Shown here: positions 1,505-62,590 of the stretch, piece after piece | How the letters are laid out: each line of letters opens with the position of its first letter | Position numbering within the stretch: the stretch's first letter is position 1 | Assembly (NCBI GenBank): GCA_964483665.1 | Contig: CAZACP010000004.1 | Location: 7,399-71,398, forward strand | DNA length: 64,000 bases | Direction of reading: 5' to 3' | Source: an uncultured Candidatus Saccharibacteria bacterium | GTDB lineage: Bacteria > Patescibacteriota > Doudnabacteria > UBA920 | Position numbers and translations under genes: made by a program | The notes under the pieces: model-generated | Told to the model about the DNA's origin: nothing | Database searches by the model: none | Seen by the model: the letters and a program-made list of their open reading frames with translations, nothing else

Positions 1505-1550
1505 GTCAATCCAAAAAACCGCCCCTCCGCCAGTTGGCGGATCAAGGGAC
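1505..1550. terminator. Bidirectional rho-independent terminator-like hairpin containing CCGCCAGTTGGCGG palindrome
   Basis: The sequence is aaaaaaccgcccctccgccagttggcggatcaagggacggttttt: a stem with an A-run before it and a T-run after it. It is downstream of the rplJ-rplL unit on the minus strand. Confidence 0.5.
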
Positions 1551-8025: not shown

Positions 8026-8083
8026 CCGAGATTATCCACCCATGGTGGAGAATTTTTCGGGGCCACGGTATAATATAACTATG

Positions 8084-8341
8084 CATTATGTATATTTATT
8101 GGAATCCCAACAAGATAAATCATGGTATATAGGCCAAACGGATGACTTAAAAGCAAGAGTAGCCAGGCACAATGCGGGTAATGGAGCCAGAACCACCAGC
8201 CTTAAAACAAATTGGGAACTTATATACTATGAAGCCTATAAGACTAAGGCAGACGCCTTGGGTAGAGAGAAATTTTTGAAAAGTGGATCTGGCTACAAGT
8301 ATTTAAAAAAACAGTTAAAAAATTATTTAGAAATCAAATAA
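8084..8341 (+). CDS. GIY-YIG nuclease family protein (UPF0213/YhbQ-like, about 85 aa)
   Basis: MHYVYLLESQQDKSWYIGQTDDLKARVARHNAG...WELIYYEAYKTKADALGREKFLKSGSG. A TATAAT box is at 8069-8074. The start is moved to 8084 from the ORF-track start of 8042. Confidence 0.8.
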   Translation, partial: HYVYLLESQQDKSWYIGQTDDLKARVARHNAGNGARTTSLKTNWELIYYEAYKTKADALGREKFLKSGSGYKYLKKQLKNYLEIK

Positions 8342-17175: not shown

Positions 17176-18153
17176 TTACAGCTTCACTATTGCCCTTAAT
17201 TTAGCGGGCTTTGAGCGAGGATTATTTTTTAATTCGTTTTCAGAAGCAGTTACTATTTTTTTGGTTAATATTTTTCCTTGAGGATTTTTGCCACACACAC
17301 ATTGAGGGAAATCTATTGGGCATACGCAGCCTTTACTTAAGCTATTAAAGTATTGTTTTACTATTCTGTCTTCAAGCGAATGGAAGCTTACTATTACTAG
17401 CCTGCCGCCCGGGTTTAAAAGGTCAAAACTTTTTGGCAAAAACTCTTCTAAGGCTTCCAGCTCATGGTTAACCGCTATTCTTAAGGCTTGAAATATTCTT
17501 CTGGCTGAATCATCGGCGCGATGTTTTACAGGCTTAGGAAGTGAATCATGGATTATTTGATAGAGTTCTGTTGTATAGCGGATTTGGCTCTTAGATCTTG
17601 ATTCTTGGATCTTCCTTGCTATCTGGCGGCTAAACTTTTCCTCACCGTAATCGCTAAATATTTTACTAAGCTCCTGTTCGCTTCTGTTATTTAGTAAAAA
17701 ACTTGCGTCTTCGGGTTTAGTTTGATCAAACCGCATGTCTAGCGGCTCTTTTTTCTGAAAGCTAAATCCCCGCCCAGACTGGTCAAGTTCATATGACGAA
17801 AGTCCCAAATCTGCAACAATGCCTGAAATATTATTAAACTCATGTTCTTTTGTTATTTTGTTTATGTTTTGAAAATTGCCGTGCACCGCTATCACTCCCT
17901 CTCCCTCTGGGAGAGGGCCGGGGTGAGGGTGTTTGATATTTGTCCGCCAGTTTGCGGATTGAAATTTGAAATTCTCAATCGCATCCTTGTCCAAATCTAT
18001 AACCAACAACTTGCCGCCCGGAGATATTTTTTGCAAGATCGTCTTACTATACCCTCCTCCGCCTAGCGTCGCGTCGACAAAATTCTCACCGGGCTTAGGG
18101 TTAAGAAAGTAAATAACTTCCTCAAGTAATACTGGAATATGTTCATAATTCAT
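17176..18153 (-). CDS. rsmH: 16S rRNA (cytosine1402-N4)-methyltransferase RsmH/MraW
   Basis: MNYEHIPVLLEEV...DATLGGGGYS and a C-terminal FHSLEDRIVK. It contains an in-frame repeat-derived insert. Confidence 0.85.
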   Translation of the reverse strand: MNYEHIPVLLEEVIYFLNPKPGENFVDATLGGGGYSKTILQKISPGGKLLVIDLDKDAIENFKFQSANWRTNIKHPHPGPLPEGEGVIAVHGNFQNINKITKEHEFNNISGIVADLGLSSYELDQSGRGFSFQKKEPLDMRFDQTKPEDASFLLNNRSEQELSKIFSDYGEEKFSRQIARKIQESRSKSQIRYTTELYQIIHDSLPKPVKHRADDSARRIFQALRIAVNHELEALEEFLPKSFDLLNPGGRLVIVSFHSLEDRIVKQYFNSLSKGCVCPIDFPQCVCGKNPQGKILTKKIVTASENELKNNPRSKPAKLRAIVKL

Positions 18154-23853: not shown

Positions 23854-23860
23854 TTTTGTT

Positions 23861-23905
23861 TTTGCTACAGAAACCTACTAAAACACACTACGTAAAACTA
23901 CAGAA
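23861..23905. repeat. Family F element (CTACAGA tandem motifs)
   Basis: gctacagaaacctactaaaacacactacgtaaaactacagaagc. The inverted partner is at 24289-24330. Confidence 0.55.
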
Positions 23906-24035
23906 GCTATTTAAAGTTATTTTGATTAAGCACCCTTTTTGGTGCTAAATATTTAGTTCGAAAGTTAACTAAAATACCAAGCTTAAAATTAGTTATATCC
24001 AAGTATCTTTTTATTTGTTCGAAATGTTCTTTTAT

Positions 24036-24314
24036 TTAAAACCGAACAGCCTTTAGCTCCAATATTAATGCATTGTCAATAATAAAATCCACAATATTTC
24101 CTGTGTCCCCGATTATTACTTCTTTCTTATACTTAATACCATTTTCTGAAAATTTTTTCTCTAGCAACTTACTATATTGTTTCTCCTTAGCATATGGACC
24201 TAATTCTTTATAAACTTCAATCAATAAACCGTTTATTTTATAGCTCAAATCCCCGTACAAAAAATCTACCTTCAGTTTCTTCGTTTCTGTAGTTTTCTGT
24301 AGGTTATTACTCAT
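24036..24314 (-). CDS. GxxExxY family protein (PD-(D/E)XK-like), C-terminally truncated paralogue
   Basis: FLYGDLSYKINGLLIEVYKELGPYAKEKQYSKLLEKKF is about 60% identical to the 39534..39923 protein, but it stops at LKAVRF and lacks the last 35 aa. Confidence 0.65.
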   Translation of the reverse strand: MSNNLQKTTETKKLKVDFLYGDLSYKINGLLIEVYKELGPYAKEKQYSKLLEKKFSENGIKYKKEVIIGDTGNIVDFIIDNALILELKAVRF

Positions 24315-24328
24315 TCGTAGTTCTGTAG

Positions 24329-24595
24329 CTACAATGCTTTTATTGAAGGGTATTTTTCGAGCAATGAATTTAATGTCATTTGCGCGATTTGTCCGGAAAG
24401 CGCCATATATTCGTTGGCCACGCCTTTTAAAACCATAGGCGGGTTGCCGTCCATGTCCAAAACCGTTCCGTCGTCGGCTATTTTTACCCCCGGCACTTTG
24501 CGGGCTTTATCGAGTGCAATATTGGGGCCTAACACAACCATTTGCTTTTGGATCAAATCCGTAAGCATTTTTTTGTATTCTGCTTGGTCTTGCAT
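24329..24595 (-). CDS. Hypothetical protein
   Basis: 88-aa ORF with no motif I recognise. Confidence 0.35.
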   Translation of the reverse strand: MQDQAEYKKMLTDLIQKQMVVLGPNIALDKARKVPGVKIADDGTVLDMDGNPPMVLKGVANEYMALSGQIAQMTLNSLLEKYPSIKAL

Positions 24596-25534: not shown

Positions 25535-26968
25535 TTACCTTTTAAAACTCTTCCCCGGCCTTATGGAAATATCACCATCGTTATCAACTTCCTTAACTCT
25601 CCCAAAACCTACGCTGTCCCTAAATACTTTCCCTGCCTTTAAAACCGGGGCGTAAGACAAAGTAAATTTGCCGTATTTGGCGTTTACAACATCTATCGCG
25701 CGAGTAAGCGAAGCTTTGGCCGTTTGTTTTTTAAACAAAGACTGCTGAAGAATAAAAGGCTTAAGGCCTGCTACGGTAACGCCTATTAATTTACAATTGG
25801 CGATGATTTTATGTATATCGGTATAATTCTTTATAATATGCCTGGCTTCCCAAAATAAATCCCTTGCGTCAAAAATATCGGTAGACAATTTTGCAGAATG
25901 CCCGTAACTGTTATAATCGCCGTCGCGCACATACGCCACCACAATATTGCCCATTAATTTTTTGCGCCTAAGCCTCTCCCCCACCATTTCGCAAAGCTTG
26001 TATAAAACCGGCTCAAAAAATTCCGGCTTTCTGTATTCCTTAGGCAGAGTATACATATGGCCGATTGATTTTATACTTTCATCAAAATTCACTTTTGCTT
26101 TCCAGCTACCGCTTAACTGTCCCATATGGTGAAGGTGATAGCCGTTAATGCCAAACACTCGCACCAGTTTGCTTAAGGGGTAATCGCGCAGCTCTTTTAA
26201 AGTTTTTATGCCAAGTTCGTTTAACCTTTTTTCCTGCCTTTTGGCTATACCCGGTATGTCGGTAAGTTTAAGACGAGTATAAAGATCTTCTTTGGTTAGA
26301 TTTAAAACCCCATTTGATATTTGAAATTTGATATTTGAAATTAGCACTATTCCATCCGGCTTTTTTAAATCACTCGCAATTTTTGCTAGGAGTTTGTTCT
26401 CCGCAATACCTATGCTGCAAGTTAAATAATCCCCCACTTCTTTTTTCATTCGTTTTTTTATTTCCACAGCTACCCTAACCGCTTCTTGCCAAGGATTGGC
26501 CAATAAATAATCTTTAATTTCTGCCATATAAAAATATGGGTGTTCTATATTTTGAAATTTGGATTTTAAAATTTGTCCGCCAGCTGGCGGATTATTTAAA
26601 AATTTAAAATTTAAAATTGGAAATTTAACATTACAGCTTGCTGTAATGTCCACATACGCTTCATCTATGCTGGCCGGCTCAACAAAATTGCTGTAGTCCC
26701 TTAAAACTTTTAAAAACCGGCGATGATACTCCCTGTAAGCATCGGCCCTTGTATGCACCAAAATAATTTTAGGATACAGCTTTTTAGCTTCCCAGACCGG
26801 CGTGCCGGTCTTTATGCCCCAGCGCTTGGCTTCTATGCTGGCGGCAATAATAATGCCGCCCAAATGTTCGCACACGCCTAAAACCTTGCCGCGGTACTCT
26901 TTATTGTCTTGCTGCTCCACCGAGGCAAAATAGCTGTTCATATCTAAATGCAAAATTACATTTTGCAT
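25535..26968 (-). CDS. dinB: DNA polymerase IV (Y-family)
   Basis: MQNVILHLDMNSYFASVE...SIDEAYVDIT...CSIGIAENKLLAKIAS. It carries two in-frame repeat-derived inserts. Confidence 0.85.
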   Translation of the reverse strand: MQNVILHLDMNSYFASVEQQDNKEYRGKVLGVCEHLGGIIIAASIEAKRWGIKTGTPVWEAKKLYPKIILVHTRADAYREYHRRFLKVLRDYSNFVEPASIDEAYVDITASCNVKFPILNFKFLNNPPAGGQILKSKFQNIEHPYFYMAEIKDYLLANPWQEAVRVAVEIKKRMKKEVGDYLTCSIGIAENKLLAKIASDLKKPDGIVLISNIKFQISNGVLNLTKEDLYTRLKLTDIPGIAKRQEKRLNELGIKTLKELRDYPLSKLVRVFGINGYHLHHMGQLSGSWKAKVNFDESIKSIGHMYTLPKEYRKPEFFEPVLYKLCEMVGERLRRKKLMGNIVVAYVRDGDYNSYGHSAKLSTDIFDARDLFWEARHIIKNYTDIHKIIANCKLIGVTVAGLKPFILQQSLFKKQTAKASLTRAIDVVNAKYGKFTLSYAPVLKAGKVFRDSVGFGRVKEVDNDGDISIRPGKSFKR

Positions 26969-26984
26969 AACTAATAATAATTAA

Positions 26985-27105
26985 TTTAGGACTTAGGCGC
27001 TCGTCATTGCGAGCCCCGAGTCCTCGAGGGGCGAAGCAATCTTTTAATATAAACAAGCCTTATTAATAACAGATTGCTTCGTCCCAAAACCTCCTCGCAA
27101 TGACG
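26985..27105. repeat. Approximately 120-bp imperfect palindrome (CGTCATTGCGAG...GAAGCAATC // GATTGCTTC...CTCGCAATGACG)
   Basis: 12-bp and 9-bp complementary arms surround a 31-bp AT-rich centre. It lies between the dinB start and the upstream gene. Confidence 0.5.
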
Positions 27106-27204
27106 AAAAACCATACTTTGCTTTGTCTCAAATATATTTTTATAGTAAACGATAGTTCACCCAAAGTCAACAAAAACAAACGCCGCGGGGGTATGGAAAA
27201 CCCC

Positions 27205-27471: not shown

Positions 27472-27720
27472 TTTTTCCTTCTCCTTGTTGTACGATACAA
27501 AACCCGTCCCAAAGAATAACAAAAAAGTTATTCTCAAGGACGGGTTGATGAAGTTTCATCAGTTTGCCGCGGTACCACCTTGCTTTCCTAAAACTTAGGA
27601 CTCTTTTTACCGGATTTTACGGCTCGGGCAACCGTGCGGGATATTCCCCCGCCAGCGTTTTGGTGTGCGAAACCAAATCTTTAACTGCTTTATACTATTA
27701 TTCCGCCAAAGGCGGATCCG
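27472..27720 (-). promoter_or_regulatory. Putative structured 5' leader with terminator/attenuator hairpin (riboswitch-like arrangement, class unknown)
   Basis: On the minus strand the hairpin is cccgtccttgagaataac-tttttt-gttattctttgggacggg followed by ttttg, 25 nt before the RBS. The GC-rich upstream segment has several short hairpins. Confidence 0.3.
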
Positions 27721-27788
27721 CCTTTGGCGGAATTTTAGCTTAGTTTACCACTTACAAAAATTCTGTCAATAACTTTGAATAACCAAAG

Positions 27789-31502: not shown

Positions 31503-31943
31503 CTAATTTAATTTTGTCATTTCAAGGTCTATTGCTTCATTTACTAGTCTGTCGGCGTCTGAATTTTGGACTCTAGGAACGTGGATGAAATTTACGTTTG
31601 CAAAATTTTTACAAAGTTTTAATACCGTTTCAGCCAGGGGTTTAAGCCCCTGGTCTTTTATTTTATAACGGCCCTGCATTTGCCTGACTATTAACTCACT
31701 ATCCATTCGGATTTCTAGGCTCGCCTTTTCGTTTGAAATTTGAAACTTGTCATTTGAAATTTTAATTGCTTCTTCCAACGCCAAAATCAGAGCCCTATAT
31801 TCCGCCTGGTTATTGGTAGTTTCTCCGATATATTTTTTAAATTCAGCGGTTATTAACCCTTGTTCATTTTTAAAAACCACACCGATCCCCGAAGGGCCTG
31901 GATTCCCCCTAGAGCCGCCATCTGTGTTGATTATTAGTTTCAT
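31503..31943 (-). CDS. rnhA: Ribonuclease HI
   Basis: INTDGGSRGNPGPSGIGVV...TNNQAEYRALILALE...HVPRVQNSDADRLVNEA. It contains an in-frame KISNDKFQISNEK insert. Confidence 0.8.
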   Translation of the reverse strand: MKLIINTDGGSRGNPGPSGIGVVFKNEQGLITAEFKKYIGETTNNQAEYRALILALEEAIKISNDKFQISNEKASLEIRMDSELIVRQMQGRYKIKDQGLKPLAETVLKLCKNFANVNFIHVPRVQNSDADRLVNEAIDLEMTKLN

Positions 31944-32018: not shown

Positions 32019-33746
32019 TTAAGATGATAACTGCCTAATATCTATAATTCTTAACTTTAATTGCTTATTCCCGTTCCATTCATCTTGCAATAATTCACAG
32101 GCTAAATCTAACTCTTGGCCTATTTGTAAACTGCTGTCTTTAGGCCCAAAATTAAAAGCGATGCAGGAAATTTGTCTGTTGCCTAAAGAAATTTTCATTT
32201 GCAAATGCTGTGCTTTTTGTCCCACAGCCCGCTTACTTAATATTTTAGCATTTTTCAGCAAAAATTTTGGTTTCGGGTTGCCAACCCCAAAAGGCTCTAA
32301 GGAAGCAATCAAGTTGTAAGTTGTAAGTTGTAAGTCTTCGGAGGAAAGTTCTGCGTCAATATTTAAAACAGGCCCGTCATCTTCTTCCATATTCTTTTCC
32401 GCAAAATCCAAAACGCTTTGGTAAAATATTTCAAAATTTTCCGTTTGCAAGGTAAGCCCCGCCGCCTGCTTATGCCCGCCATAGCGGATTAAATGCTGGC
32501 CGGAATATTTTAAAGCCTCAACTACATTAAATTCCCCCGCGCTTCTGGCCGACCCGGTCGCTTCAAACTCCCCCTTCTCCAGCACAATTGTGGGTTTATA
32601 AAATTCTTCGGCTAATTTGCCCGCAACTAACCCCACAACGCCTTTATGCCAACTTTCCCCCATTAACACCAAAACCTTCCTGTGAAGTATTCCTTGGGCT
32701 TTTTCTCTCGCTTCGCTCATTATCCGCGCTGTTATTTCCTGCCTTCGCAAATTTATTTCTTCAATATTTTGAGCTTGAATTTTTGCCTTTAAGGGATCGT
32801 TTTCTAACAAAAGTTCCAGGGCAACATTAGCGTGTTCAAGCCTTCCAGCCGCGTTTATCCTTGGTGCAATTACAAAACCTAAGGAATAAGTATCCAGCGG
32901 CTGCTTTGCAGGATCCAGCTTTGCTAAATCCATTAAAGCCCTAAGCCCAACCCACTTTGTTTTAGCTAAAACTTTAAGGCCATACTTAACAAAAATTCTA
33001 TTCTCGCCTATAAGCTTATGACAGTCAGCCACTGTGCCTATAGCCACAAGGTCTAATAGCCACTTTTCCCACCCTTGGGATGATTTCGGATTTCGTCCGC
33101 CAGCTGGCGGATCGGATTTCGGATTTTGCAGCAATGCCTGAGCGAGTTTAAAAGCCACGCCGACCCCAACAATTTGGTCATCCGGATAATTATCGTCTTG
33201 ATTTTTAGGGTTTATAAGCGCTAAAGCGTTTGGTAAATTTCCAATAATTTCATGGTGGTCGGTAATAATTAAGTCTATGTTATTTTCCTTGCACCATTCT
33301 GCGGCATCTACAGAATTTGTGCCGCAGTCCACGGTAATTATTACTTTTGAACCATGTTCTTTAATTTTTTTTAAGGCGTCTAAATTTACCCCGTACCCTT
33401 CCAAAAAACGGTCGGGTATATAACTTTCACAGTCCGCGCCCAAATAATTAAAGGCTTGGCGCAAAACCGCATTAGCGGTTATGGCGTCTGCGTCATAGTC
33501 GCCGTAAATAGTAATTTTTTCTTTATTCTCTATTGCCTGCCATATCCTGTTAACGGCTTTTTCCATATCGCGGAATAAAAACGGGCTATTAAGCCCTGTA
33601 GTATAGTCCGCGTTAATAAATTTTTTTATTTCTTCCGGTTCCTTAAGGCCGCGATCAAAAAGCAATTGCCTTAAAAGGACCGGGTAATCTTTATAAACTT
33701 CTTCCAGTTCTGTCGGAATATTGGGTTTTAATTTCCAAATTTTCAT
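32019..33746 (-). CDS. recJ: Single-stranded-DNA-specific exonuclease RecJ
   Basis: DHH motifs (YGDYDADAITANAVL and IITDHHE) and a DHHA1 domain. It has two in-frame repeat inserts. Confidence 0.85.
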   Translation of the reverse strand: MKIWKLKPNIPTELEEVYKDYPVLLRQLLFDRGLKEPEEIKKFINADYTTGLNSPFLFRDMEKAVNRIWQAIENKEKITIYGDYDADAITANAVLRQAFNYLGADCESYIPDRFLEGYGVNLDALKKIKEHGSKVIITVDCGTNSVDAAEWCKENNIDLIITDHHEIIGNLPNALALINPKNQDDNYPDDQIVGVGVAFKLAQALLQNPKSDPPAGGRNPKSSQGWEKWLLDLVAIGTVADCHKLIGENRIFVKYGLKVLAKTKWVGLRALMDLAKLDPAKQPLDTYSLGFVIAPRINAAGRLEHANVALELLLENDPLKAKIQAQNIEEINLRRQEITARIMSEAREKAQGILHRKVLVLMGESWHKGVVGLVAGKLAEEFYKPTIVLEKGEFEATGSARSAGEFNVVEALKYSGQHLIRYGGHKQAAGLTLQTENFEIFYQSVLDFAEKNMEEDDGPVLNIDAELSSEDLQLTTYNLIASLEPFGVGNPKPKFLLKNAKILSKRAVGQKAQHLQMKISLGNRQISCIAFNFGPKDSSLQIGQELDLACELLQDEWNGNKQLKLRIIDIRQLSS

Positions 33747-33749
33747 TGA

Positions 33750-33830
33750 GTAGTTGGTAGTTGGTAGTTGGTAGTTGGTAGCCCAAATTGCTCCGGCTAC
33801 TTACTACTTTACTACCTACTACTTACTAAA
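33750..33830. repeat. Family D element: (TAGTTGG)4 array - spacer - (CTACTTA)n array
   Basis: Read directly from the sequence. The second copy is at 62515-62590. Confidence 0.65.
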
Positions 33831-35745
33831 GTATTTCCAATAAATTTATGCCTGTCATTTCTTCCGGCTTAGGCAAGTCAAATAAAGCTAAAATAGTGGG
33901 CGCTACGTCTGAAATAACGCCATTTGGCATTTCGCCTGAGAGGCTTTCAAAATTAATCCCTAAGGGATTTTTAAACTTTAGACTATTACTTACAAAAAGG
34001 CAAGGCACCGGATTAGTGGTGTGGTCTTTGTCTATTTCCCCGGTTTGCGAAGAAATCATTTCTTCCACGTTGCCATGGTCAGCGGTTATTATTAAAGTTG
34101 CGTTACTTAAAAGCGCTGCGTCCATAACTTGCCGAAGAGATTGGTCAATAAACTCAACTGCTTTAATTGAGGCCTGTAAATTTCCGGTATGCCCTACCAT
34201 ATCGCAGTTAGCGTAATTGGCAACAAAAAAATTAGTGTTGGTTCCGGTAATTTTTTGGGTCAGTATGTCTGTTAACTCTTCCGCGGACATTTGCGGGCTG
34301 TCGGTATAGTTGCGGGCGTTGTTTGGACTGGTTACAATATGCCGCTCTTCTCCCGGGTAGGGGTCTGTTTTGCCGCAATTAAAAAAAGAAGTAACGTGGG
34401 CGTATTTTTCGCTTTCTGAAATATGAAACTGGGTATAACCGCTGTTAGACAATACTTCGGCTAAATTATTTTTTAAATCCATTGGGGGAAATGCAACATG
34501 GACCCCTTTTAAATTTTGGGAATATTCGGTCATTGTACAAAAGTACAAATTCTGCAAAACCGGGTGCCTAAATTCCGCCGGCACGTTTTGCGGCGCCACA
34601 AACATTTCGGTTAATTGGAGTGCTCTATCTTGGCGGAAATTAAAGAAAATAACCGCGTCATTTTCTTCTATTGTGGCCAACGGTTTTTGGTCAAAATTTG
34701 TTATTACCGTAGGCAGTATCATTTCATCAAAAATTTGCTTTTGGTAGCTTTGAGTAATTACATCTTCCGCTGAGGCGGCCATGGGACCCTTGCCATTGAC
34801 CAAAGCTTGATAGGTCATTTCAGTTTGGTTATAGTGCCCGCCTCTGTCCATGGTGTAAAACCTGCCGCCTAACGTGGCAACAGTTCCGACACCTATTCTG
34901 TTAATGCGCTCTTTAACTTTTTTAAGCTCATCCATCGCAACTCTTTCGGGCGTGTCGCGGCCGTCGGTAAACATATGTATAAAGACCCTATTTAAAACCA
35001 TTTCCGAACAGAGTCCCAAAATAGCGAACATATGTTCATCTAAGCTATGCACCCCGCCGTCTGAAACCAGTCCGAGCAAATGGAGTTTGGAATTATTTTT
35101 TTTGGCGTGCTCAACCGCACCCCGCAAAATGGGATTTTTAAAAAAATCGCCGTTTTGTATAGCCATGGTTATGCGGGGCAAATCTTCGCCCACAATCCTG
35201 CCGGCTCCAATATTTAAATGCCCGCTCTCGCTGTTGCCCATTTGTCCCCAAGGCAGGCCAACCAAGGGTCCGCTAGCCTGCAAGGTCAACGAAGGGAAAT
35301 TATTTACAATATGGTTTAAGGTTGGTGTTCTGGCCCTAAAAATCGCATTGCCGGTTGCGGGAGGAGCTACGCCAAAACCGTCTAAAATTACCAGAACAAC
35401 TTTTTTTAATTCTTTCTTATTCGAAGATGTTTGTTCTGGTTGCTGCTTTGTAAAAATTTCAGGTTCCTTTTGTAAGTTATGAGGGCGAGGTATCGGGGCA
35501 TTTGGCATGTTTGCAGCTAAAAAATTTTGGTCGTTATTGGCCTTTGGCCGCAATATTCTTTGTGGAATATTCGGAGCAATCACAGGTTTAAAAGGCTTGC
35601 TGCTTGGGGTTTGTAAATTTTTTTGAGGCAAAATGCCGGCCGGATTTTTCTTTTCCGCCTGTTTTTCTTCGCCATTCTTTGCAACAGAAAAAGGTAATCC
35701 CCCAATTTTATGCGGCCTTGGAATTTGTAAGCTGTCGTCAGACAT
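33826..35745 (-). CDS. gpmI: 2,3-bisphosphoglycerate-independent phosphoglycerate mutase with Pro-rich N-terminal extension
   Basis: The core VVLVILDGFGV...GNSESGHLNIGAGRIV matches iPGM. It is preceded by about 110 aa of low-complexity sequence. Confidence 0.8.
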   Translation of the reverse strand: MSDDSLQIPRPHKIGGLPFSVAKNGEEKQAEKKNPAGILPQKNLQTPSSKPFKPVIAPNIPQRILRPKANNDQNFLAANMPNAPIPRPHNLQKEPEIFTKQQPEQTSSNKKELKKVVLVILDGFGVAPPATGNAIFRARTPTLNHIVNNFPSLTLQASGPLVGLPWGQMGNSESGHLNIGAGRIVGEDLPRITMAIQNGDFFKNPILRGAVEHAKKNNSKLHLLGLVSDGGVHSLDEHMFAILGLCSEMVLNRVFIHMFTDGRDTPERVAMDELKKVKERINRIGVGTVATLGGRFYTMDRGGHYNQTEMTYQALVNGKGPMAASAEDVITQSYQKQIFDEMILPTVITNFDQKPLATIEENDAVIFFNFRQDRALQLTEMFVAPQNVPAEFRHPVLQNLYFCTMTEYSQNLKGVHVAFPPMDLKNNLAEVLSNSGYTQFHISESEKYAHVTSFFNCGKTDPYPGEERHIVTSPNNARNYTDSPQMSAEELTDILTQKITGTNTNFFVANYANCDMVGHTGNLQASIKAVEFIDQSLRQVMDAALLSNATLIITADHGNVEEMISSQTGEIDKDHTTNPVPCLFVSNSLKFKNPLGINFESLSGEMPNGVISDVAPTILALFDLPKPEEMTGINLLEIL

Positions 35746-39480: not shown

Positions 39481-39533
39481 AACTACAAAACTACAGACAT
39501 ATACGAATCTACAGATACCTACAGAATCGTATA
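39481..39533. repeat. Family F element (CTACAGA motifs)
   Basis: aaactacaaaactacagacatatacgaatctacagatacctacagaatcg. The inverted partner is at 39925-39960. Confidence 0.55.
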
Positions 39534-39923
39534 TTAAATATTATTTGGATTTAAAACTCTCTTTATTTGTAATCTGGGGACGCGGAAGTTTACTAATAGA
39601 CCTAATTTTAAATTCGTTTGAATTAAATAACGCTTTAACTGATCATATGTTTCTTGTATTAAAAAAGGTACTGTTTTTAATTCTAGAATAATTCTATTTT
39701 CAATAATGAAGTCAGCAATATTACCAGAATCCCCTATCCTAACCTCTCTCTTATAATTCACGGCTCTGTTTTTAAATATAATTTCTATTTTATCGGCTAC
39801 TTGTTTTTCTCTAGCATATGGCCCCAGTTCTTTATGAACCTCAATTAAAATGCCATTGATCTTGTAAGTAAGATCGCCGTACAAAAATTCTGACATCTTT
39901 TTAAACTTAGTTTCTGTAGGCAT
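39534..39923 (-). CDS. GxxExxY family protein (PD-(D/E)XK-like), full length
   Basis: FLYGDLTYKINGILIEVHKELGPYAREKQ....ELKTVPFLIQETYDQLKRYL. Confidence 0.7.
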   Translation of the reverse strand: MPTETKFKKMSEFLYGDLTYKINGILIEVHKELGPYAREKQVADKIEIIFKNRAVNYKREVRIGDSGNIADFIIENRIILELKTVPFLIQETYDQLKRYLIQTNLKLGLLVNFRVPRLQIKRVLNPNNI

Positions 39924-39956
39924 CTGTAGTACATTTAATTCTGTAGTTCTGGTAGT

Positions 39957-41094: not shown

Positions 41095-42111
41095 CTAGTC
41101 TTTTTTCCTTCCCACTATCTCCATTACCTTTTGTTTTATTTTGTCGTTTGTAATGGCAATTGGCTTAAAACTCTTTAGTTTTTTTAATTTGGTTTCTATT
41201 TCGCGCCTTGTTAAAAGCCCGGCCTGCGGCCCTACTTTTTGCACCACGCTGCCGGCATTGACCGGCCCCCACATGAGCGCATCATGGTGCGAAAGACCAT
41301 GGCTTAAAGCCGCAATATAAGCGGTGGTAAAACTGTCGCCCGCTCCGGTGGCTTCCACACGCTCGCCCGGGTATTCGGGGCAATAGTAAAACCCTTCCGC
41401 GCTATAACTATACGCACCCCGCCTACCGTCTGTAAGCGCTATTGCCTTGGGGCCTAACTTACCAAGCCTTCTGCAAAGTTCTTCCGGATCCCTACCGCAG
41501 TCGCCCACCCACGCCTGGCTTTCCTCTATATTTAATGATAGCACACTGGTACGCTTAAGCATTATTTCATTGGTCTTAGGACCTGCCCTTAGCATAAAGG
41601 TCCCCGGATTAAAGCCTAATTTTACTTTGTATTTGTCTAAATATTTTGCCAAATCTTTATAAATTTTTTCAAAACCTTCACCCATACTGGTTAAATACAC
41701 CCAAGCAGAGGCGGGAAATTTGGGTAGTTTGTAGTTACGGTGCTGATGATAAACAAAAATTGTTCGTTCGCCCTTAAAACTTAAAACATAAGAAGCGTTA
41801 GTGCCGTGCTTGTCATCTATTACAATAAACCTGTCAGAAACGCCCTCTTTTCTCATTTTATGCACAATTTCCCTTCCGCCTGTGTCATGAGCGAGTACCG
41901 TATAAAAAGCCGCTTTAAGGCCAAGCCTTGAGCTTCCAACAGCGTTATTAGCAGCATTGCCGGCTACCGACTTATATAATTCATCTACCGGCAATTTGTC
42001 TCCCCAATTCAAAAGGGCTTTTTGTTTGCCGTCGATTTCTTTAACCTCAACGTCATGAACAAATAAAAAGGTGTCTATTGTGGCATCGCCGATGGATATT
42101 ATGTCAAACAT
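41095..42111 (-). CDS. PfkB-family carbohydrate kinase
   Basis: C-terminal GAGDSFTTAYIAAL motif within a ribokinase-like fold. Confidence 0.7.
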   Translation of the reverse strand: MFDIISIGDATIDTFLFVHDVEVKEIDGKQKALLNWGDKLPVDELYKSVAGNAANNAVGSSRLGLKAAFYTVLAHDTGGREIVHKMRKEGVSDRFIVIDDKHGTNASYVLSFKGERTIFVYHQHRNYKLPKFPASAWVYLTSMGEGFEKIYKDLAKYLDKYKVKLGFNPGTFMLRAGPKTNEIMLKRTSVLSLNIEESQAWVGDCGRDPEELCRRLGKLGPKAIALTDGRRGAYSYSAEGFYYCPEYPGERVEATGAGDSFTTAYIAALSHGLSHHDALMWGPVNAGSVVQKVGPQAGLLTRREIETKLKKLKSFKPIAITNDKIKQKVMEIVGRKKD

Positions 42112-42603: not shown

Positions 42604-42879
42604 TTACACCCATTTACCCCACTCTCCGCTAATTAATTTTCTTTTCTTTTTCTGGCCCCAACCTTTAACTTGCTTTTCTCTAAGTCTTGCTTCTTCCAAA
42701 TTTTCAAATTCTTCAATATAAACTATATTTTTAACTCCGTGCTTCTTGGTATACTCCGAACCTTCTCCAAGCAAATGCTGATTTCCGCGAATATCGTGGT
42801 TCCAAGTCATTCCGGTATAAAAAGTATCGTCCAGGCACTCCACAATATACACATACCATTTCCAGTTTTCTTTGGTCAT
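42604..42879 (-). CDS. GIY-YIG nuclease family protein (second copy)
   Basis: WYVYIVECLDDTFYTGMTWNHDIRGNQHLLGEG...IVYIEEFENLEEARLREKQVKGW. Confidence 0.75.
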   Translation of the reverse strand: MTKENWKWYVYIVECLDDTFYTGMTWNHDIRGNQHLLGEGSEYTKKHGVKNIVYIEEFENLEEARLREKQVKGWGQKKKRKLISGEWGKWV

Positions 42880-45075: not shown

Positions 45076-45091
45076 TTTGTTTTTGCGGTAT

Positions 45092-45131
45092 TTCCCTCCC
45101 CTCCTAAGGGGAGGGATTAAGGGAGAGGTTG
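45092..45131. repeat. Family A element (CCCTCCCCTCCTAAGGGGAGGG ATTAAGGGAGAGGTTG)
   Basis: Read directly from the sequence. Confidence 0.65.
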
Positions 45132-45135
45132 TATT

Positions 45136-45501
45136 TTAAAACCCGCATGCTTCTTTTATTTTACTTAAAACTCCTTGAATATTTGTGTCTATTTCATTAT
45201 TCCAAAATCTTAAAACTTTGTAGCCTATTTTTTCTGCGTACTGTTGTTTTCGCTTATCGTAAGCCGATATTTCTTGCTCGCTGTGCTGTCCTCCGTCTGC
45301 CTCCACTAAGAGCATTTTCTCTTTACAACTAAAATCATAAATATACTGTCCAATTTGCATTTGACGCTTAAATTTTAACCCATAAAACCTACCAGCTCTT
45401 AAATAATACCAAAGCTTGCTTTCCCAAGGAGTCTGATTTTTTCTTAGGCTTCGGGAATTGGTTAAATATGGCTCTGGTATAACTCTTTTGGCAGTATCCA
45501 T
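45136..45501 (-). CDS. DUF559 endonuclease-domain protein (Vsr-like fold)
   Basis: YGLKFKRQMQIGQYIYDFSCKEKMLLVEADGGQHS...YKVLRFWNNEI. Confidence 0.75.
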   Translation of the reverse strand: MDTAKRVIPEPYLTNSRSLRKNQTPWESKLWYYLRAGRFYGLKFKRQMQIGQYIYDFSCKEKMLLVEADGGQHSEQEISAYDKRKQQYAEKIGYKVLRFWNNEIDTNIQGVLSKIKEACGF

Positions 45502-45511
45502 ATGTTTTTAG

Positions 45512-45620
45512 TCTCTCCCCTTTTAAGGGGAGATGTCACGAGTGTATCCGAGTGACAAAGAGGTTGTATACTACATCTACTGCAACCTCTCCCTAACCCT
45601 CTCCTTAAAAGGAGAGGGTA
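45512..45620. repeat. Family A composite element (4 hairpins: CTCCCC/GGGGAG, GTCAC/GTGAC, GAGGTTG/CAACCTC, CCCTCTCC/GGAGAGGG)
   Basis: Same stem set as 63043-63138 in inverted orientation, but with different loops. Confidence 0.7.
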
Positions 45621-45645
45621 CCTGTAAAGATATCGTACGTTTCTT

Positions 45646-47578: not shown

Positions 47579-48262
47579 TCACATGTCGATTATTTCGTTA
47601 AAGTAACTAGGGATCAAACTGGCACCGCCAACCAAAAGCCCGTCTACATTTCTTTGTTCCAAAAATCCTTTGGCATTTGTAGGACTTACGCTGCCACCAT
47701 ATAAAACTTTTTTTACACCATAACGATTTTTTATAAAAAGGCCAATTGTCTCTGCGTGTTCAGGGCTAGCCACTTTGCCTGTGCCAATTGCCCAAACCGG
47801 CTCATAAGCGACCACAACTTTAGAAACTTCTATTCCTTTTAAATCCGTATCTAGTTGCTGTTTTATTACATCGGTTACTTCTAAATCGTCCTGCTCAACT
47901 TTTGTTCCAAAACCAACGCATACTACCGGCGTAATCGCATTGGCCAACGCCGCCTTCGTTTTGGCATTTATCATTTCGTCAGTTTCGCCGGTCGCTCTTT
48001 TCTCGCTATGACCTATTATGCTGTATTTAATTTTCAAAGACTTTAATTGTAAAGGGGAAACTTGTCCGGTAAAAGCACCCTTCTCCTCCCAAAAACAGTC
48101 TTGGGAACCTAAGTTAGGATATTGGATATTAGATACGTAGATGGTAGGCGGGCACAAAACCACGGTATTTTTTTTTGTGCGGGATATAGCAGCCGCAAGC
48201 TTCTGCGCTTCCTTTAAAGTGGTTGGGTTTAATTTCCAGTTGGCGATAATTAGTTTTTTCAT
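47579..48262 (-). CDS. tpiA: Triosephosphate isomerase
   Basis: IIANWKLN...IGHSEKR...GGSV. Confidence 0.9.
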   Translation of the reverse strand: MKKLIIANWKLNPTTLKEAQKLAAAISRTKKNTVVLCPPTIYVSNIQYPNLGSQDCFWEEKGAFTGQVSPLQLKSLKIKYSIIGHSEKRATGETDEMINAKTKAALANAITPVVCVGFGTKVEQDDLEVTDVIKQQLDTDLKGIEVSKVVVAYEPVWAIGTGKVASPEHAETIGLFIKNRYGVKKVLYGGSVSPTNAKGFLEQRNVDGLLVGGASLIPSYFNEIIDM

Positions 48263-49589: not shown

Positions 49590-49973
49590 CTAATTCTTTT
49601 TCTTATCTAAATAATTTTGTAAAAGTATTTGCGCGGCAAGGCTGTCTAAATCTTTTTTACTTCCGCTTATATTTTTTGCCATAACAGATGTTAATCGCTC
49701 GTCTATAGTTTCTACCGGCAAACCTGTCTTTTTTGTAATTTGCAATTTGAAACCGGAAATTTCTTCCGTCTTTTTTGTCATTTCCCCGCTCATATTTAGC
49801 GGCCAGCCCAAAACAATTTGGGTAATTTGATGTTCCTCGATAACTCCCGTAATTTTCTCCCAAAATTCCTTTGGCGACAAAATAGTTAACTCCCGCGCAA
49901 AAGTTTTTGTCTCATCAGAAATTGCCAAACCAATCCTCTTTGAGCCATAGTCGATCCCTAGGATTTTAGACAT
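49590..49973 (-). CDS. ruvX: Holliday-junction resolvase-like protein RuvX/YqgF
   Basis: ILGIDYGSKRIGLAISD... Confidence 0.85.
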   Translation of the reverse strand: MSKILGIDYGSKRIGLAISDETKTFARELTILSPKEFWEKITGVIEEHQITQIVLGWPLNMSGEMTKKTEEISGFKLQITKKTGLPVETIDERLTSVMAKNISGSKKDLDSLAAQILLQNYLDKKKN

Positions 49974-62510: not shown

Positions 62511-62514
62511 TATG

Positions 62515-62590
62515 TAGTTGGTAGTTGGTAGTTGATAGTTGGTAGCCGAACATTGCCTGACTACTTACTACTTACTACTTCACTAATCGC
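62515..62590. repeat. Family D element (TAGTTGG array - spacer - CTACTTA array)
   Basis: It overlaps the last 8 codons of rplO. Confidence 0.65.

What the first reader, a model, noticed from the sequence alone, without database searches (positions are those of the whole stretch)
26300..26635. DinB contains two separate in-frame repeat inserts
The first insert (26551-26630) is NVKFPILNFKFLNNPPAGGQILKSKFQNIEH. Its DNA is an imperfect 80-bp palindrome centred on CCGCCAGCTGGCGG and flanked by AAATTT-rich arms. The second insert (26305-26340) is ISNIKFQISNG, from tandem GATATTTGAAATTT units. Both interrupt conserved Y-family polymerase segments without a frameshift. The enclosed peptide KFQISN recurs in RnhA and RsmH.
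Basis: partly seen in the sequence, partly recalled or inferred. Interest (0 to 1): 0.7.

Follow-up and report, generated by a model that had tools for sequence, protein, structure and literature searches.

The report
In-frame heptamer repeat cassettes in DinB
The DNA polymerase IV gene of this Candidatus Doudnabacteria genome carries two translated repeat cassettes in loop regions. They belong to a lineage-wide spread of 7-base tandem repeats into genes and spacers, and they change even between near-identical strains.

Summary
Both inserts exist at the stated coordinates in dinB (25535-26968, minus strand), in frame.

- **Insert 1** lies in the palm loop just after the catalytic Asp-Glu strand. 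It is an AAATTT(T/C) heptamer array interrupted by the perfect palindrome TCCGCCAGCTGGCGGA.
- **Insert 2** lies in the palm-thumb linker. It is a pure direct heptamer array with no hairpin.

They are not DinB-specific. Period-7 arrays number 13 in the window against 0.15 in shuffles, and they also sit in RNase H, RecJ, RsmH, TIM, PfkB and RuvX and in spacers.

Across 80 related loci the trait is clade-specific: about 2-5 arrays per 10 kb in most genomes of one clade and none in the sister clade.

- **Linker length:** the DinB linker is exactly 10 residues in 46 genomes and 21-73 hypervariable residues in the 35 genomes of the window's clade.
- **Turnover:** a strain about 96% identical in DNA has different cassettes in DinB, RecJ and RsmH.
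- **Sharing:** one cassette is 91% identical between species whose DinB proteins are 63% identical.

My best reading is a 7-nt-step repeat-generating and cassette-replacing process plus small GC hairpins, filtered by selection for reading frame, absence of stops and permissive loops. The closest analogues are Rickettsia palindromic elements and cyanobacterial or Beggiatoa heptamer repeats. I call it a new variant of a known kind.

The parts
25535..26968 (-). dinB (DNA polymerase IV, Y family), 477 aa, host gene of both cassettes
   Evidence: ORF. Pfam IMS, IMS_HHH_1 and IMS_C. PDB sequence matches. Foldseek hits to Dpo4, Pol kappa and Pol IV.
26498..26629 (-). Hypervariable site 1 (HV1), residues 114-157, between SIDEAY..CN and NPWQEA in the palm. 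It is 44 aa here against a 12-13 aa baseline.
   Evidence: Alignments of 26 and 81 orthologues. pLDDT is below 50 for residues 125-151. No PDB counterpart for residues 110-158.
26540..26632 (-). Insert 1 of the finding: AAATTT(T/C) heptamer array interrupted by the GC palindrome. Encodes NVKFPILNFKFLNNPPAGGQILKSKFQNIEH.
   Evidence: lag-7 identity 0.47.
26575..26592 (.). Core palindrome GTCCGCCAGCTGGCGGAT (16-nt perfect palindrome TCCGCCAGCTGGCGGA), translated as PPAGG
   Evidence: 4 copies against 0.10 expected. (the copies share only about 21 nt). (18 nt extra relative to L004/L005). (the only stable stem).
26288..26350 (-). Hypervariable site 2 (HV2), residues 207-227, the palm-thumb linker. 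It is 21 aa here against an invariant 10-aa LVVVRPEDKx outside the clade.
   Evidence: 46 genomes have 10 aa; 35 have 21-73 aa. (it differs in a strain that is about 96% identical).
26312..26342 (-). Insert 2 of the finding: direct array of 4.4 heptamers (AAATTTC/AAATATC on the sense strand), no hairpin
   Evidence: (z = +1.45, less structure than shuffles).
31731..31762 (-). Heptamer array inside RNase H (31503-31943), encoding SNDKFQISNE. The site is present or absent among genomes of the clade.
33080..33127 (-). RecJ (32019-33746) cassette: (GAAATCC)2 + core palindrome + (GAAATCC)2, with direct arms. Encodes NPKSDPPAGGRNPKS.
   Evidence: Replaced by (GAAAAGA)4 without the core in strain L081.
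32309..32338 (-). Second RecJ array, (ACTTACA)3-4, encoding DLQLTTYNLI. There is no length change relative to other clades, but the segment is heptamer-periodic.
17890..17975 (-). RsmH (17176-18153) composite insert: heptamers + degenerate core (TCCGCAAACTGGCGGA, read as SANWR) + GC-rich element encoding HPHPGPLPEGEG
   Evidence: shared with L010.
17580..17613 (-). Second RsmH array (AAGATCC-type). Replaced by (GTTATCA)3 in strain L081.
33747..33828 (-). Intergenic hairpin of inverted heptamer arrays, (GTAGTTG)4 ... (ACTACTT)n, ending at the RecJ start codon
   Evidence: -34 kcal/mol, z = -6.2.
62511..62585 (-). Second copy of the GTAGTTG/ACTACTT hairpin, between L15 and the SecY start codon
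   Evidence: (z = -2.2). (97% identity over 34 nt to the first copy).
48115..48135 (-). Heptamer array inside triose-phosphate isomerase. Further short arrays lie in PfkB (41773-41793) and RuvX (49732-49752).
1525..1542 (.). Intergenic copy of the core palindrome (CCGCCAGTTGGCGG)

Best explanation
The two DinB inserts are translated, selectively filtered by-products of a lineage-specific repeat process acting on the whole genome.

**The process.** In one Doudnabacteria clade, short tandem arrays of arbitrary A+T-rich heptanucleotides (3-6 copies) arise, expand, contract and are replaced. Some arrays are interrupted by a 16-18-nt GC palindrome or by other GC-rich palindromic repeats.

**Where the arrays persist.** They are densest in spacers, where inverted arrays form strong hairpins that abut start codons. 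Inside genes they persist only where three conditions hold:
- the total length keeps the reading frame;
- the units, or their variants, contain no stop codon in the frame being read;
- the protein tolerates a floppy peptide.

**In DinB.** The tolerant places are the palm loop after the catalytic strand (HV1) and the palm-thumb linker (HV2). HV2 was opened once in the clade ancestor, and its content has been rewritten many times since.

**Function.** The peptides themselves most likely have no specific function.

**Shown:** 7-nt periodicity, clade restriction, site conservation with content turnover, frame and stop filtering, whole-unit indels, and dispersed copies.

**Inferred:** slippage or unequal exchange as the generator, gene conversion or transfer as the replacer, and neutrality at the protein level.
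For: **Periodicity is specific to 7.**
- The window has 13 arrays at period 7 against 0.15 in shuffles. Periods 6, 8 and 9 give 1, 2 and 1.
- Across 1.3 Mb of related loci there are 190 arrays at period 7, against 41 at period 6 and 14 at period 8.
- 197 arrays use 91 different units, so the period is the invariant, not the sequence.

**The trait is clade-specific.**
- Short windows matching at lag 7 occur at 4.72 per 10 kb in array-bearing genomes against 0.74 in array-free ones. The equivalent figures at lag 14 are 3.57 and 0.65.
- Array presence follows the DinB tree.

**DinB sites.**
- HV2 is exactly 10 aa in 46 genomes and 21-73 aa in all 35 genomes of the window's clade.
- Lag-7 identity within the HV DNA is mostly 0.4-0.6 where heptamer arrays fill the site, against roughly 0.25 at other lags.

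**The cassettes are translated.**
- All 81 dinB genes stay in frame through both sites.
- Variant units fall exactly where a pure repeat would create a stop. AAGGATT would give TAA, and the real array reads KDKGLMIKD.

**Arrays are tolerated rather than favoured in genes.** 87 of 197 arrays lie inside ORFs, while ORFs cover 86% of the DNA.

**Turnover.**
- Strain L081 is 93-97% identical in DNA. The sharpest local divergence includes the cassettes in RecJ, DinB HV2 and RsmH.
- Whole-unit indels (21 nt = 3 x 7; 16 nt = 2 x 8) separate L071 from L072. The array-free pair L059/L061 shows none.

**Structure.**
- HV1 has pLDDT below 50.
- HV2 is coil between two strands.
- The flanking core is confidently modelled.
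Against: - **Slippage alone does not explain wholesale unit changes.** (GAAATCC)n becomes (GAAAAGA)n between strains about 96% identical.
- **Slippage alone does not explain cassette sharing.** One HV2 cassette is 91% identical over 68 nt between species whose DinB proteins are 63% identical. Third-codon identity is 21/26 in the cassette against 182/427 in the rest of the gene. That points to copying or transfer of cassettes, or to selection on the DNA itself.
- **DNA-level conservation in RecJ.** The (GTCAATT)4 array is almost identical in five species while flanking synonymous sites differ.
- **No compact genome has lost the site.** No genome of the clade has deleted HV2 back to 10 aa, except possibly L050/L052, which sit on a long branch. 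This is unexpected for pure junk.
- **No candidate enzyme has been identified.**
- **Clean +/-7-nt differences were not seen** inside the WIN/L081 cassettes. The alignments there are ambiguous.
Confidence: 0.65

Rival explanations
1. The cassettes are discrete non-autonomous mobile elements, like MITEs or Rickettsia palindromic elements. They are copied into permissive or preferred target sites, including existing heptamer arrays, by an enzyme encoded elsewhere in the genome. The GC core palindrome would be a very small mobile unit.
For: - **Dispersed copies.** The core occurs 4 times in 64 kb against 0.10 expected, in three unrelated genes and one spacer.
- **Gain of the core.** WIN HV1 equals the L004/L005 HV1 plus 18 nt at the core.
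- **Metagenome context.** 11 of 120 occurrences of the 18-mer sit inside a direct heptamer array that continues on both sides, against 1.8 in the control.
- **Multi-copy GC-rich elements in HV sites.** L022 HV1 has a 92.5% copy 8 kb away. L016 HV1 matches the L016 RNase H insert at 78% over 64 nt. L013 HV2 matches the L013 RecJ insert.
- **Cross-species sharing.** One cassette is 91% identical across distant species.
Against: - The copies in the window share only about 21 nt, and the arms differ in unit.
- There is no consistent target-site duplication or terminal inverted repeat.
- 91 different heptamer units exist.
- Arrays occupy orthologous positions with no length change.
- Pfam finds no transposase or RAYT-type gene among the window ORFs of at least 90 aa.
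- Most metagenomic occurrences of the 18-mer have unrelated flanks.
Confidence: 0.3
2. The arrays and hairpins act at the nucleic-acid level. They could be binding sites for a protein that reads 7-nt units, or structured or unstructured mRNA segments that tune translation or stability. On this view they are maintained by selection on DNA or RNA, not on the peptide.
For: - **Position.** Inverted arrays form strong hairpins that end exactly at the RecJ and SecY start codons.
- **Conservation.** The RecJ (GTCAATT)4 array and the L081/L051 HV2 cassette are more conserved at synonymous sites than the rest of their genes.
- **Retention.** HV2 is kept in all 35 genomes of the clade.
- **Precedent.** TAACTGA heptamer repeats in Beggiatoaceae lie directly upstream of start codons and were proposed to act in translational regulation. 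CspB binds heptamer repeats (PMC4679880).
Against: - Units differ from site to site and from strain to strain.
- Coding arrays, including insert 2, are unstructured. The hairpin of insert 1 is marginal.
- Rfam has no match.
- No binding protein is known.
Confidence: 0.2
3. The cassettes are contingency or diversification loci. Heptamer copy-number changes would switch repair genes on and off by frameshift, or selection would favour diverse surface peptides on DinB, RecJ and RNase H.
For: - A unit length not divisible by 3 inside coding sequence is the classic layout of phase-variable genes.
- The affected genes are enriched in DNA repair and replication functions (DinB, RecJ, RNase H, RuvX).
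- Variability is extreme between close strains.
Against: - All 81 dinB genes are in frame.
- Arrays are short (3-5 units) and imperfect, which slips poorly.
- Glycolytic and ribosome-associated genes are affected as well.
- Spacers carry more arrays per base than genes.
Confidence: 0.08
4. The inserts are assembly or binning artefacts.
For: Low-complexity A+T-rich repeats can be misassembled.
Against: - The identical DinB protein with both inserts is on record from several independent contigs and sources.
- The same sites carry cassettes in 35 independent MAGs from many studies.
- All of them are in frame.
Confidence: 0.02

Closest known systems
Rickettsia palindromic elements (RPEs; summarised in PMC10969869)
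   Same: Short repeats are inserted in frame into many unrelated housekeeping genes. They are translated as extra peptide segments that appear compatible with the fold, and they also occur in spacers.
   Different: RPEs are about 150 bp and fall into roughly ten families, each with a conserved consensus and peptide. Here the cassettes are 30-90 bp and the copies share at most about 21 nt. The invariant is a 7-nt period with 91 different units, the content is replaced between near-identical strains, and the host is a Patescibacteria lineage.
Heptanucleotide tandem repeats of cyanobacteria and Beggiatoaceae (STRR, recalled from memory; TAACTGA repeats, PMC4679880), and the general excess of 7-nt units among long simple sequence repeats in prokaryotes (as summarised in PMC4679880)
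   Same: Direct tandem repeats of a 7-nt unit with a few copies per array. They are abundant in spacers, often directly upstream of start codons, and restricted to certain lineages. Polymerase slippage is the proposed origin.
   Different: Those systems are dominated by one or a few unit sequences and are almost entirely intergenic. Here the units are highly diverse, and 44% of arrays lie inside ORFs at recurrent, hypervariable sites of conserved enzymes.
Small dispersed repeats of cyanobacteria (21-27-nt elements nested in hairpins and repeats; Elhai and co-workers 2008, recalled from memory and not read here)
   Same: A very short GC-containing palindromic unit is found nested inside other repeats and sometimes inside genes, without a recognisable transposase.
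   Different: The sequence is unrelated. The association with heptamer arrays holds for only about 10% of metagenomic occurrences of the 18-mer. Mobility is not demonstrated here.
MITEs and REP/REPIN elements (PMC3184786, PMC3116915, PMC10969869)
   Same: Short, multi-copy, hairpin-forming, non-coding-type repeats that can land inside genes.
   Different: No terminal inverted repeats, no target-site duplication, no conserved element body and no RAYT or transposase were seen in the window.
Phase-variable simple sequence repeats (contingency loci)
   Same: Tandem units whose length is not a multiple of three lie inside coding sequence.
   Different: No frameshifted alleles were seen in 81 genomes. 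The arrays are short and imperfect, and housekeeping genes of all kinds are affected.

Membership tests
Y-family DNA polymerase IV (DinB), the host gene | IMS palm/fingers domain with the catalytic Asp and Asp-Glu, an HhH thumb and a little-finger domain | tested here: met
   Pfam IMS 1.9e-38, IMS_HHH_1 and IMS_C. D8/D102/E103-type motifs DMNSYF and SIDEAY are invariant. Foldseek probability is 1.00 to Dpo4, Pol kappa and Pol IV.
Rickettsia palindromic elements | In-frame insertion into unrelated housekeeping ORFs, translated | tested here: met
   DinB (two sites), RNase H, RecJ (two sites), RsmH (two sites), TIM, PfkB and RuvX are all in frame. All 81 dinB genes are intact.
Rickettsia palindromic elements | Element of about 100-150 bp belonging to a family with a conserved consensus and conserved peptide | tested here: not met
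   The window copies share only about 21 nt. There are 91 heptamer units. Content differs between strains that are 96% identical.
Rickettsia palindromic elements | Palindromic, hairpin-forming sequence | tested here: inconclusive
   Insert 1 has a stable stem only at the GC core (z = -1.9). Insert 2 has no hairpin (z = +1.45). The intergenic relatives are strong hairpins (z = -6.2).
MITE | Terminal inverted repeats and a target-site duplication flanking a conserved body | tested here: not met
   Flanks of the core copies in the window, in 80 loci and in 120 metagenome loci show no consistent direct repeat or terminal inverted repeat.
REP/REPIN with RAYT | A REP hairpin family plus a cognate Y1 (RAYT) transposase gene | tested here: inconclusive
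   No Y1 transposase was found among the window ORFs of at least 90 aa. Only 64 kb of the genome was available.
Heptanucleotide simple sequence repeats (STRR / TAACTGA type) | Direct tandem repeats with a 7-nt unit, enriched over other periods | tested here: met
   13 arrays against 0.15 in shuffles, with periods 6, 8 and 9 near zero. 190 against 41 and 14 across the loci.
Heptanucleotide simple sequence repeats (STRR / TAACTGA type) | One or a few dominant unit sequences per genome, and an essentially intergenic location | tested here: not met
   91 canonical units occur among 197 arrays. 87 arrays lie fully inside ORFs.
Contingency locus (phase variation) | Copy-number changes that shift the reading frame and switch the gene on or off | tested here: not met
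   No frameshifted dinB was found in 81 genomes. Read-level data were not available.
Diversity-generating retroelement target | Variable region with adenine-specific substitutions at constant length, plus a template repeat and a reverse transcriptase | tested here: not met
   The sites vary in length from 21 to 73 aa and in unit sequence. No reverse transcriptase was found in the window.

The most novel reading that the evidence does not exclude
An active, clade-specific mechanism installs and exchanges short heptamer-repeat cassettes at fixed sites in housekeeping genes. It would copy them between loci or even between species.

That mechanism would be either a new class of ultra-small mobile element or a cassette-type diversification system acting on enzymes such as DinB, RecJ and RNase H. 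Possible links are the small PD-(D/E)XK, GIY-YIG and DUF559 nuclease genes scattered through these genomes.

The evidence does not exclude this. Cassettes are replaced wholesale between strains that are 96% identical. One cassette is 91% identical between species whose DinB proteins are 63% identical.
Probability: 0.2. Interest if true: 0.85.

Novelty: new variant of a known kind. Interest (0 to 1): 0.6.

Why it matters
- **Protein tolerance.** Compact Patescibacteria genomes can carry and rapidly rewrite repeat-derived peptide segments inside core enzymes. The loops of a translesion polymerase that tolerate this are now mapped across 81 natural variants.
- **A contrast to exploit.** Sister clades differ sharply in 7-nt periodicity. 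This gives a direct comparative handle on why heptanucleotide repeats dominate long simple repeats in bacteria, a question open since that excess was first described.
- **Practical consequences.** Such cassettes inflate apparent protein divergence, break homology-based domain calls and can mislead strain typing. They could also serve as sensitive strain markers.
- **If cassette copying is real,** it is a new way of moving sequence between genes.

Tried and rejected
- **14-mer enrichment.** GATATTTGAAATTT gives 8 matches against 3.5 expected, which is weak. The period, not the word, is the signal.
- **Insert 1 as a true 80-bp hairpin.** Only the GC core folds stably.
- **Known RNA families.** Rfam at gathering thresholds finds only a tRNA-Gln.
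- **Target-site duplications around the core.** A 3-nt direct repeat (CAA, CGA or TCA) occurs in a few copies but not consistently.
- **Core always nested in heptamer arrays.** This holds for only about 10% of 120 metagenomic occurrences. The 18-mer also occurs in unrelated and high-GC contexts.
- **Transposase, RAYT or reverse transcriptase in the window.** None was found.
- **PDDEXK_3 nuclease genes and the heptamer-bearing clade.** 7 places against 0, but the counts are small and the query is biased toward the window's own clade. I did not rely on this.
- **Literature searches.** I found no description of heptamer or in-frame repeat cassettes in Patescibacteria.
- **Clean +/-7-nt indels between WIN and L081 inside cassettes.** The alignments are ambiguous. 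Whole-unit indels were seen in L071/L072 instead.
- **Surface exposure.** Loop status therefore rests on pLDDT, secondary structure and gaps against PDB sequences.
Full report
**1. The observation.**
- The window is a gene-dense stretch of about 40% G+C. Its DinB matches proteins that their sources label Candidatus Doudnabacteria or Patescibacteria.
- ORF 25535-26968 (minus strand, 477 aa) is a Y-family polymerase. Pfam finds IMS at 8-200, IMS_HHH_1 at 236-282 and IMS_C at 300-404. An AlphaFold2 model (mean pLDDT 73.8) matches Dpo4, Pol kappa and Pol IV with probability 1.00.
- Insert 1 contains the exact palindrome CCGCCAGCTGGCGG at 26577-26590, flanked by 33-nt arms that are 73% complementary.
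- Insert 2 is a perfect 14-nt x 2.2 repeat, equivalent to 7 nt x 4.4, at 26312-26342.
- phmmer against PDB chains leaves residues 110-158 unmatched and opens a 10-residue gap at insert 2.
- Residues 125-151 have pLDDT below 50. Residues 211-220 are coil between strands 206-210 and 221-224.
- The inserts therefore lie in the palm loop a few residues after the catalytic SIDEAY strand and in the palm-thumb linker. Neither is in the little finger.
- KFQISN recurs exactly in RNase H. RsmH has only NFKFQ, followed by the core palindrome read in another frame.

**2. The signal is a 7-nt period, not a word.**
- Arrays of at least three units number 13 in the window at period 7, against 0.15 in shuffles. 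Periods 6, 8 and 9 give 1, 2 and 1.
- The arrays lie in DinB, RNase H, RecJ, TIM, PfkB and RuvX and in spacers. A weaker array detected by Tandem Repeats Finder lies in RsmH.
- Two spacer elements are inverted arrays, (GTAGTTG)4 ... (ACTACTT)n. They fold strongly (-34 kcal/mol, z = -6.2; and z = -2.2) and end at the start codons of recJ and secY.
- Insert 2 and the other coding arrays are unstructured. In insert 1 only the GC core stem is stable (z = -1.9).
- The core palindrome occurs four times against 0.10 expected: in DinB, RecJ, RsmH and one spacer. The copies share only about 21 nt and have different heptamers beside them.
- In RecJ the arms are direct repeats, GAAATCC on both sides. Insert 1 looks palindromic mainly because AAATTT is self-complementary.

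**3. Orthologues.**
- Twenty-six close homologues show near-invariant flanks. At exactly the two sites they differ extremely in length and sequence, with 7-residue periodic peptides such as NNKFQISN, SEQWLVSSEQ, NEECKMQNEECS and DKGLKIKDS.
- Eighty dinB loci were fetched from species-representative genomes.
- Where heptamer arrays fill an HV segment, its DNA has lag-7 identity of mostly 0.4-0.6, against roughly 0.25 at other lags. The unit differs from species to species.
- HV sites also host other GC-rich palindromic repeats. These have further copies in the same 21-kb locus. For example, L022 HV1 has a 92.5% copy 8 kb away, and L016 HV1 resembles the L016 RNase H insert.
- HV2 is exactly 10 residues (LVVVRPEDKx) in 46 genomes and 21-73 residues in the 35 genomes of the window's clade. 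L050/L052, on a long branch, are the only exceptions inside it.
- The HV1 baseline is 12-13 residues. It is variable in several clades.

**4. A clade-wide genomic trait.**
- Array density is about 1-5 per 10 kb in most genomes of the window's clade and in a second, smaller clade. It is zero in the intervening sister clade of 29 genomes.
- Short windows matching at lag 7 occur at 4.72 per 10 kb in array-bearing genomes against 0.74 in array-free ones. At lag 14 the figures are 3.57 and 0.65. Other lags are equal.
- 197 arrays use 91 canonical units and are 75% A+T.
- 87 arrays lie fully inside ORFs, although ORFs cover 86% of the DNA. Arrays are therefore several-fold denser per base in spacers.
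- In RNase H the insert site is occupied in some genomes of the clade and empty in others. It is always empty in the array-free clade.
- In RecJ and RsmH, variable helices of the array-bearing clade are heptamer-periodic even where length is unchanged.
- One RecJ array, (GTCAATT)4, is nearly identical in DNA in five species while neighbouring synonymous sites differ.

**5. Dynamics.**
- A 19-kb contig from a close strain (L081) is 93-97% identical to the window.
- The sharpest local divergence includes four repeat regions, plus a PDDEXK_3 gene:
  - RecJ: (GAAATCC)2-core-(GAAATCC)2 against (GAAAAGA)4.
  - DinB HV2: 21 aa against 30 aa, with different units.
  - RsmH: AAGATCC-type units against (GTTATCA)3.
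  - One spacer.
- HV1 is the same in both strains.
- Conversely, the L081 HV2 cassette is 91% identical over 68 nt to that of L051, whose DinB protein is 63% identical. Third-codon identity is 21/26 in the cassette against 182/427 elsewhere, and the similarity stops at the cassette borders. Other cross-lineage pairs exist.
- L071 and L072 differ by whole-unit indels (21 nt = 3 x 7 in a spacer array; 16 nt = 2 x 8). The array-free pair L059/L061 has none.
- WIN HV1 equals the L004/L005 HV1 plus 18 nt at the core.
- In 120 metagenome occurrences of the 18-mer, 11 sit inside a direct array that continues on both sides, against 1.8 in the control.

**6. Interpretation.**
- The cassettes are translated. 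All 81 dinB genes keep frame through both sites, and variant units fall where a pure repeat would give a stop codon.
- They are best seen as products of a lineage-specific process that generates and replaces repeats in 7-nt steps, plus small GC hairpins. Selection then filters for frame, absence of stops and permissive loops.
- Slippage explains the whole-unit indels. It does not explain wholesale unit replacement or cross-species sharing, so a copy-and-replace component (gene conversion, transfer or true mobility) is likely and remains unresolved.
- Function at the RNA or DNA level is plausible for the spacer hairpins. It is not shown for the DinB inserts.

**7. Comparison with known systems.**
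- Rickettsia palindromic elements are the closest functional analogue, as in-frame repeats in many housekeeping genes (PMC10969869). The defining conserved element body of about 150 bp is absent here.
- Heptanucleotide repeats of cyanobacteria and Beggiatoaceae, and the general excess of 7-nt simple repeats, are the closest sequence-level analogue (PMC4679880). Those repeats are dominated by single units and are intergenic.
- I found no description of this phenomenon in Patescibacteria.

**8. Verdict.** The larger picture is a clade-wide heptamer invasion of coding sequence with fixed hot spots and fast cassette turnover. I rate it a new variant of a known kind, of moderate to high interest.

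Noticed in passing
window 23860-24330 and 39485-39950: Both PDDEXK_3 (PD-(D/E)XK nuclease) genes, 24036-24314 and 39534-39923, are bracketed by inverted clusters of CTACAG (2-3 copies on one side) and CTGTAG (3 copies on the other). These account for 11 of the 25 occurrences in the window. The 24036 gene region is among the most divergent stretches compared with the 96%-identical strain L081. This looks like a small selfish gene cassette.
   Followed up: partly
window 33747-33828 and 62511-62585: Two copies of a strong hairpin built from inverted heptamer arrays (GTAGTTG / ACTACTT). Each ends at a start codon (recJ, secY) and overlaps the end of the upstream gene.
   Followed up: partly
window ~27000-27110: A GC-rich palindromic element of about 110 bp lies immediately upstream of dinB, with arms CGTCATTGCGAG...GGGGCGAAGCAATC and GATTGCTTCGTCCC...CTCGCAATGACG. 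It is a different repeat family from the heptamers.
   Followed up: no
window 27695-27738: A near-perfect 44-nt palindrome contains two back-to-back hairpins, TCCGCCAAAGGCGGA and TCCGCCTTTGGCGGA. The same doublet occurs in L010 (inside dinB), L076 and L079.
   Followed up: no
window 17890-17930 (RsmH); also 45080-45140 and 45500-45640: GC-rich 'CTCCCTCTGGGAGAGGG'-type palindromes are translated in RsmH as HPHPGPLPEGEG. Related palindromes flank the DUF559 endonuclease gene 45136-45501. Similar elements sit in DinB HV1 and RNase H of other species.
   Followed up: partly
window 8042-8341, 42604-42879, 45136-45501: Small stand-alone GIY-YIG and DUF559 nuclease genes are interspersed among housekeeping genes. 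L081 carries an extra DUF559 gene plus one further ORF where the window has none.
   Followed up: no
window 25535-25747 (DinB residues 408-477): A QQSLF motif resembles a beta-clamp-binding motif (resemblance recalled from memory). It is followed by a conserved tail of about 50 residues (...KYGKFT...KAGKVFRDSVGFGRVKEV), invariant across orthologues but modelled with low confidence. Clamp motifs are usually C-terminal.
   Followed up: no
L091, L102, L125, L128, L163, L190 (metagenome loci): The 18-mer ATCCGCCAGCTGGCGGAC lies inside tRNA-like sequence, flanked by D-arm-like and T-arm-like motifs, at places where ARAGORN calls no tRNA. These may be tRNA genes interrupted by the hairpin.
   Followed up: partly
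window 35416-35745 (first ~110 residues of the iPGM ORF 33826-35745): The N-terminal 110 or so residues of the phosphoglycerate mutase ORF are matched only in the closest genome, L001. In all other genomes the match starts near residue 105-124. The true start may be internal, or the extension may be lineage-specific.
   Followed up: no
L050, L052: These two genomes are placed inside the heptamer-bearing clade on a long branch. They have almost no arrays, the ancestral 10-residue HV2 and a 7-residue HV1. This is either secondary loss of the whole trait or misplacement in the tree.
   Followed up: no
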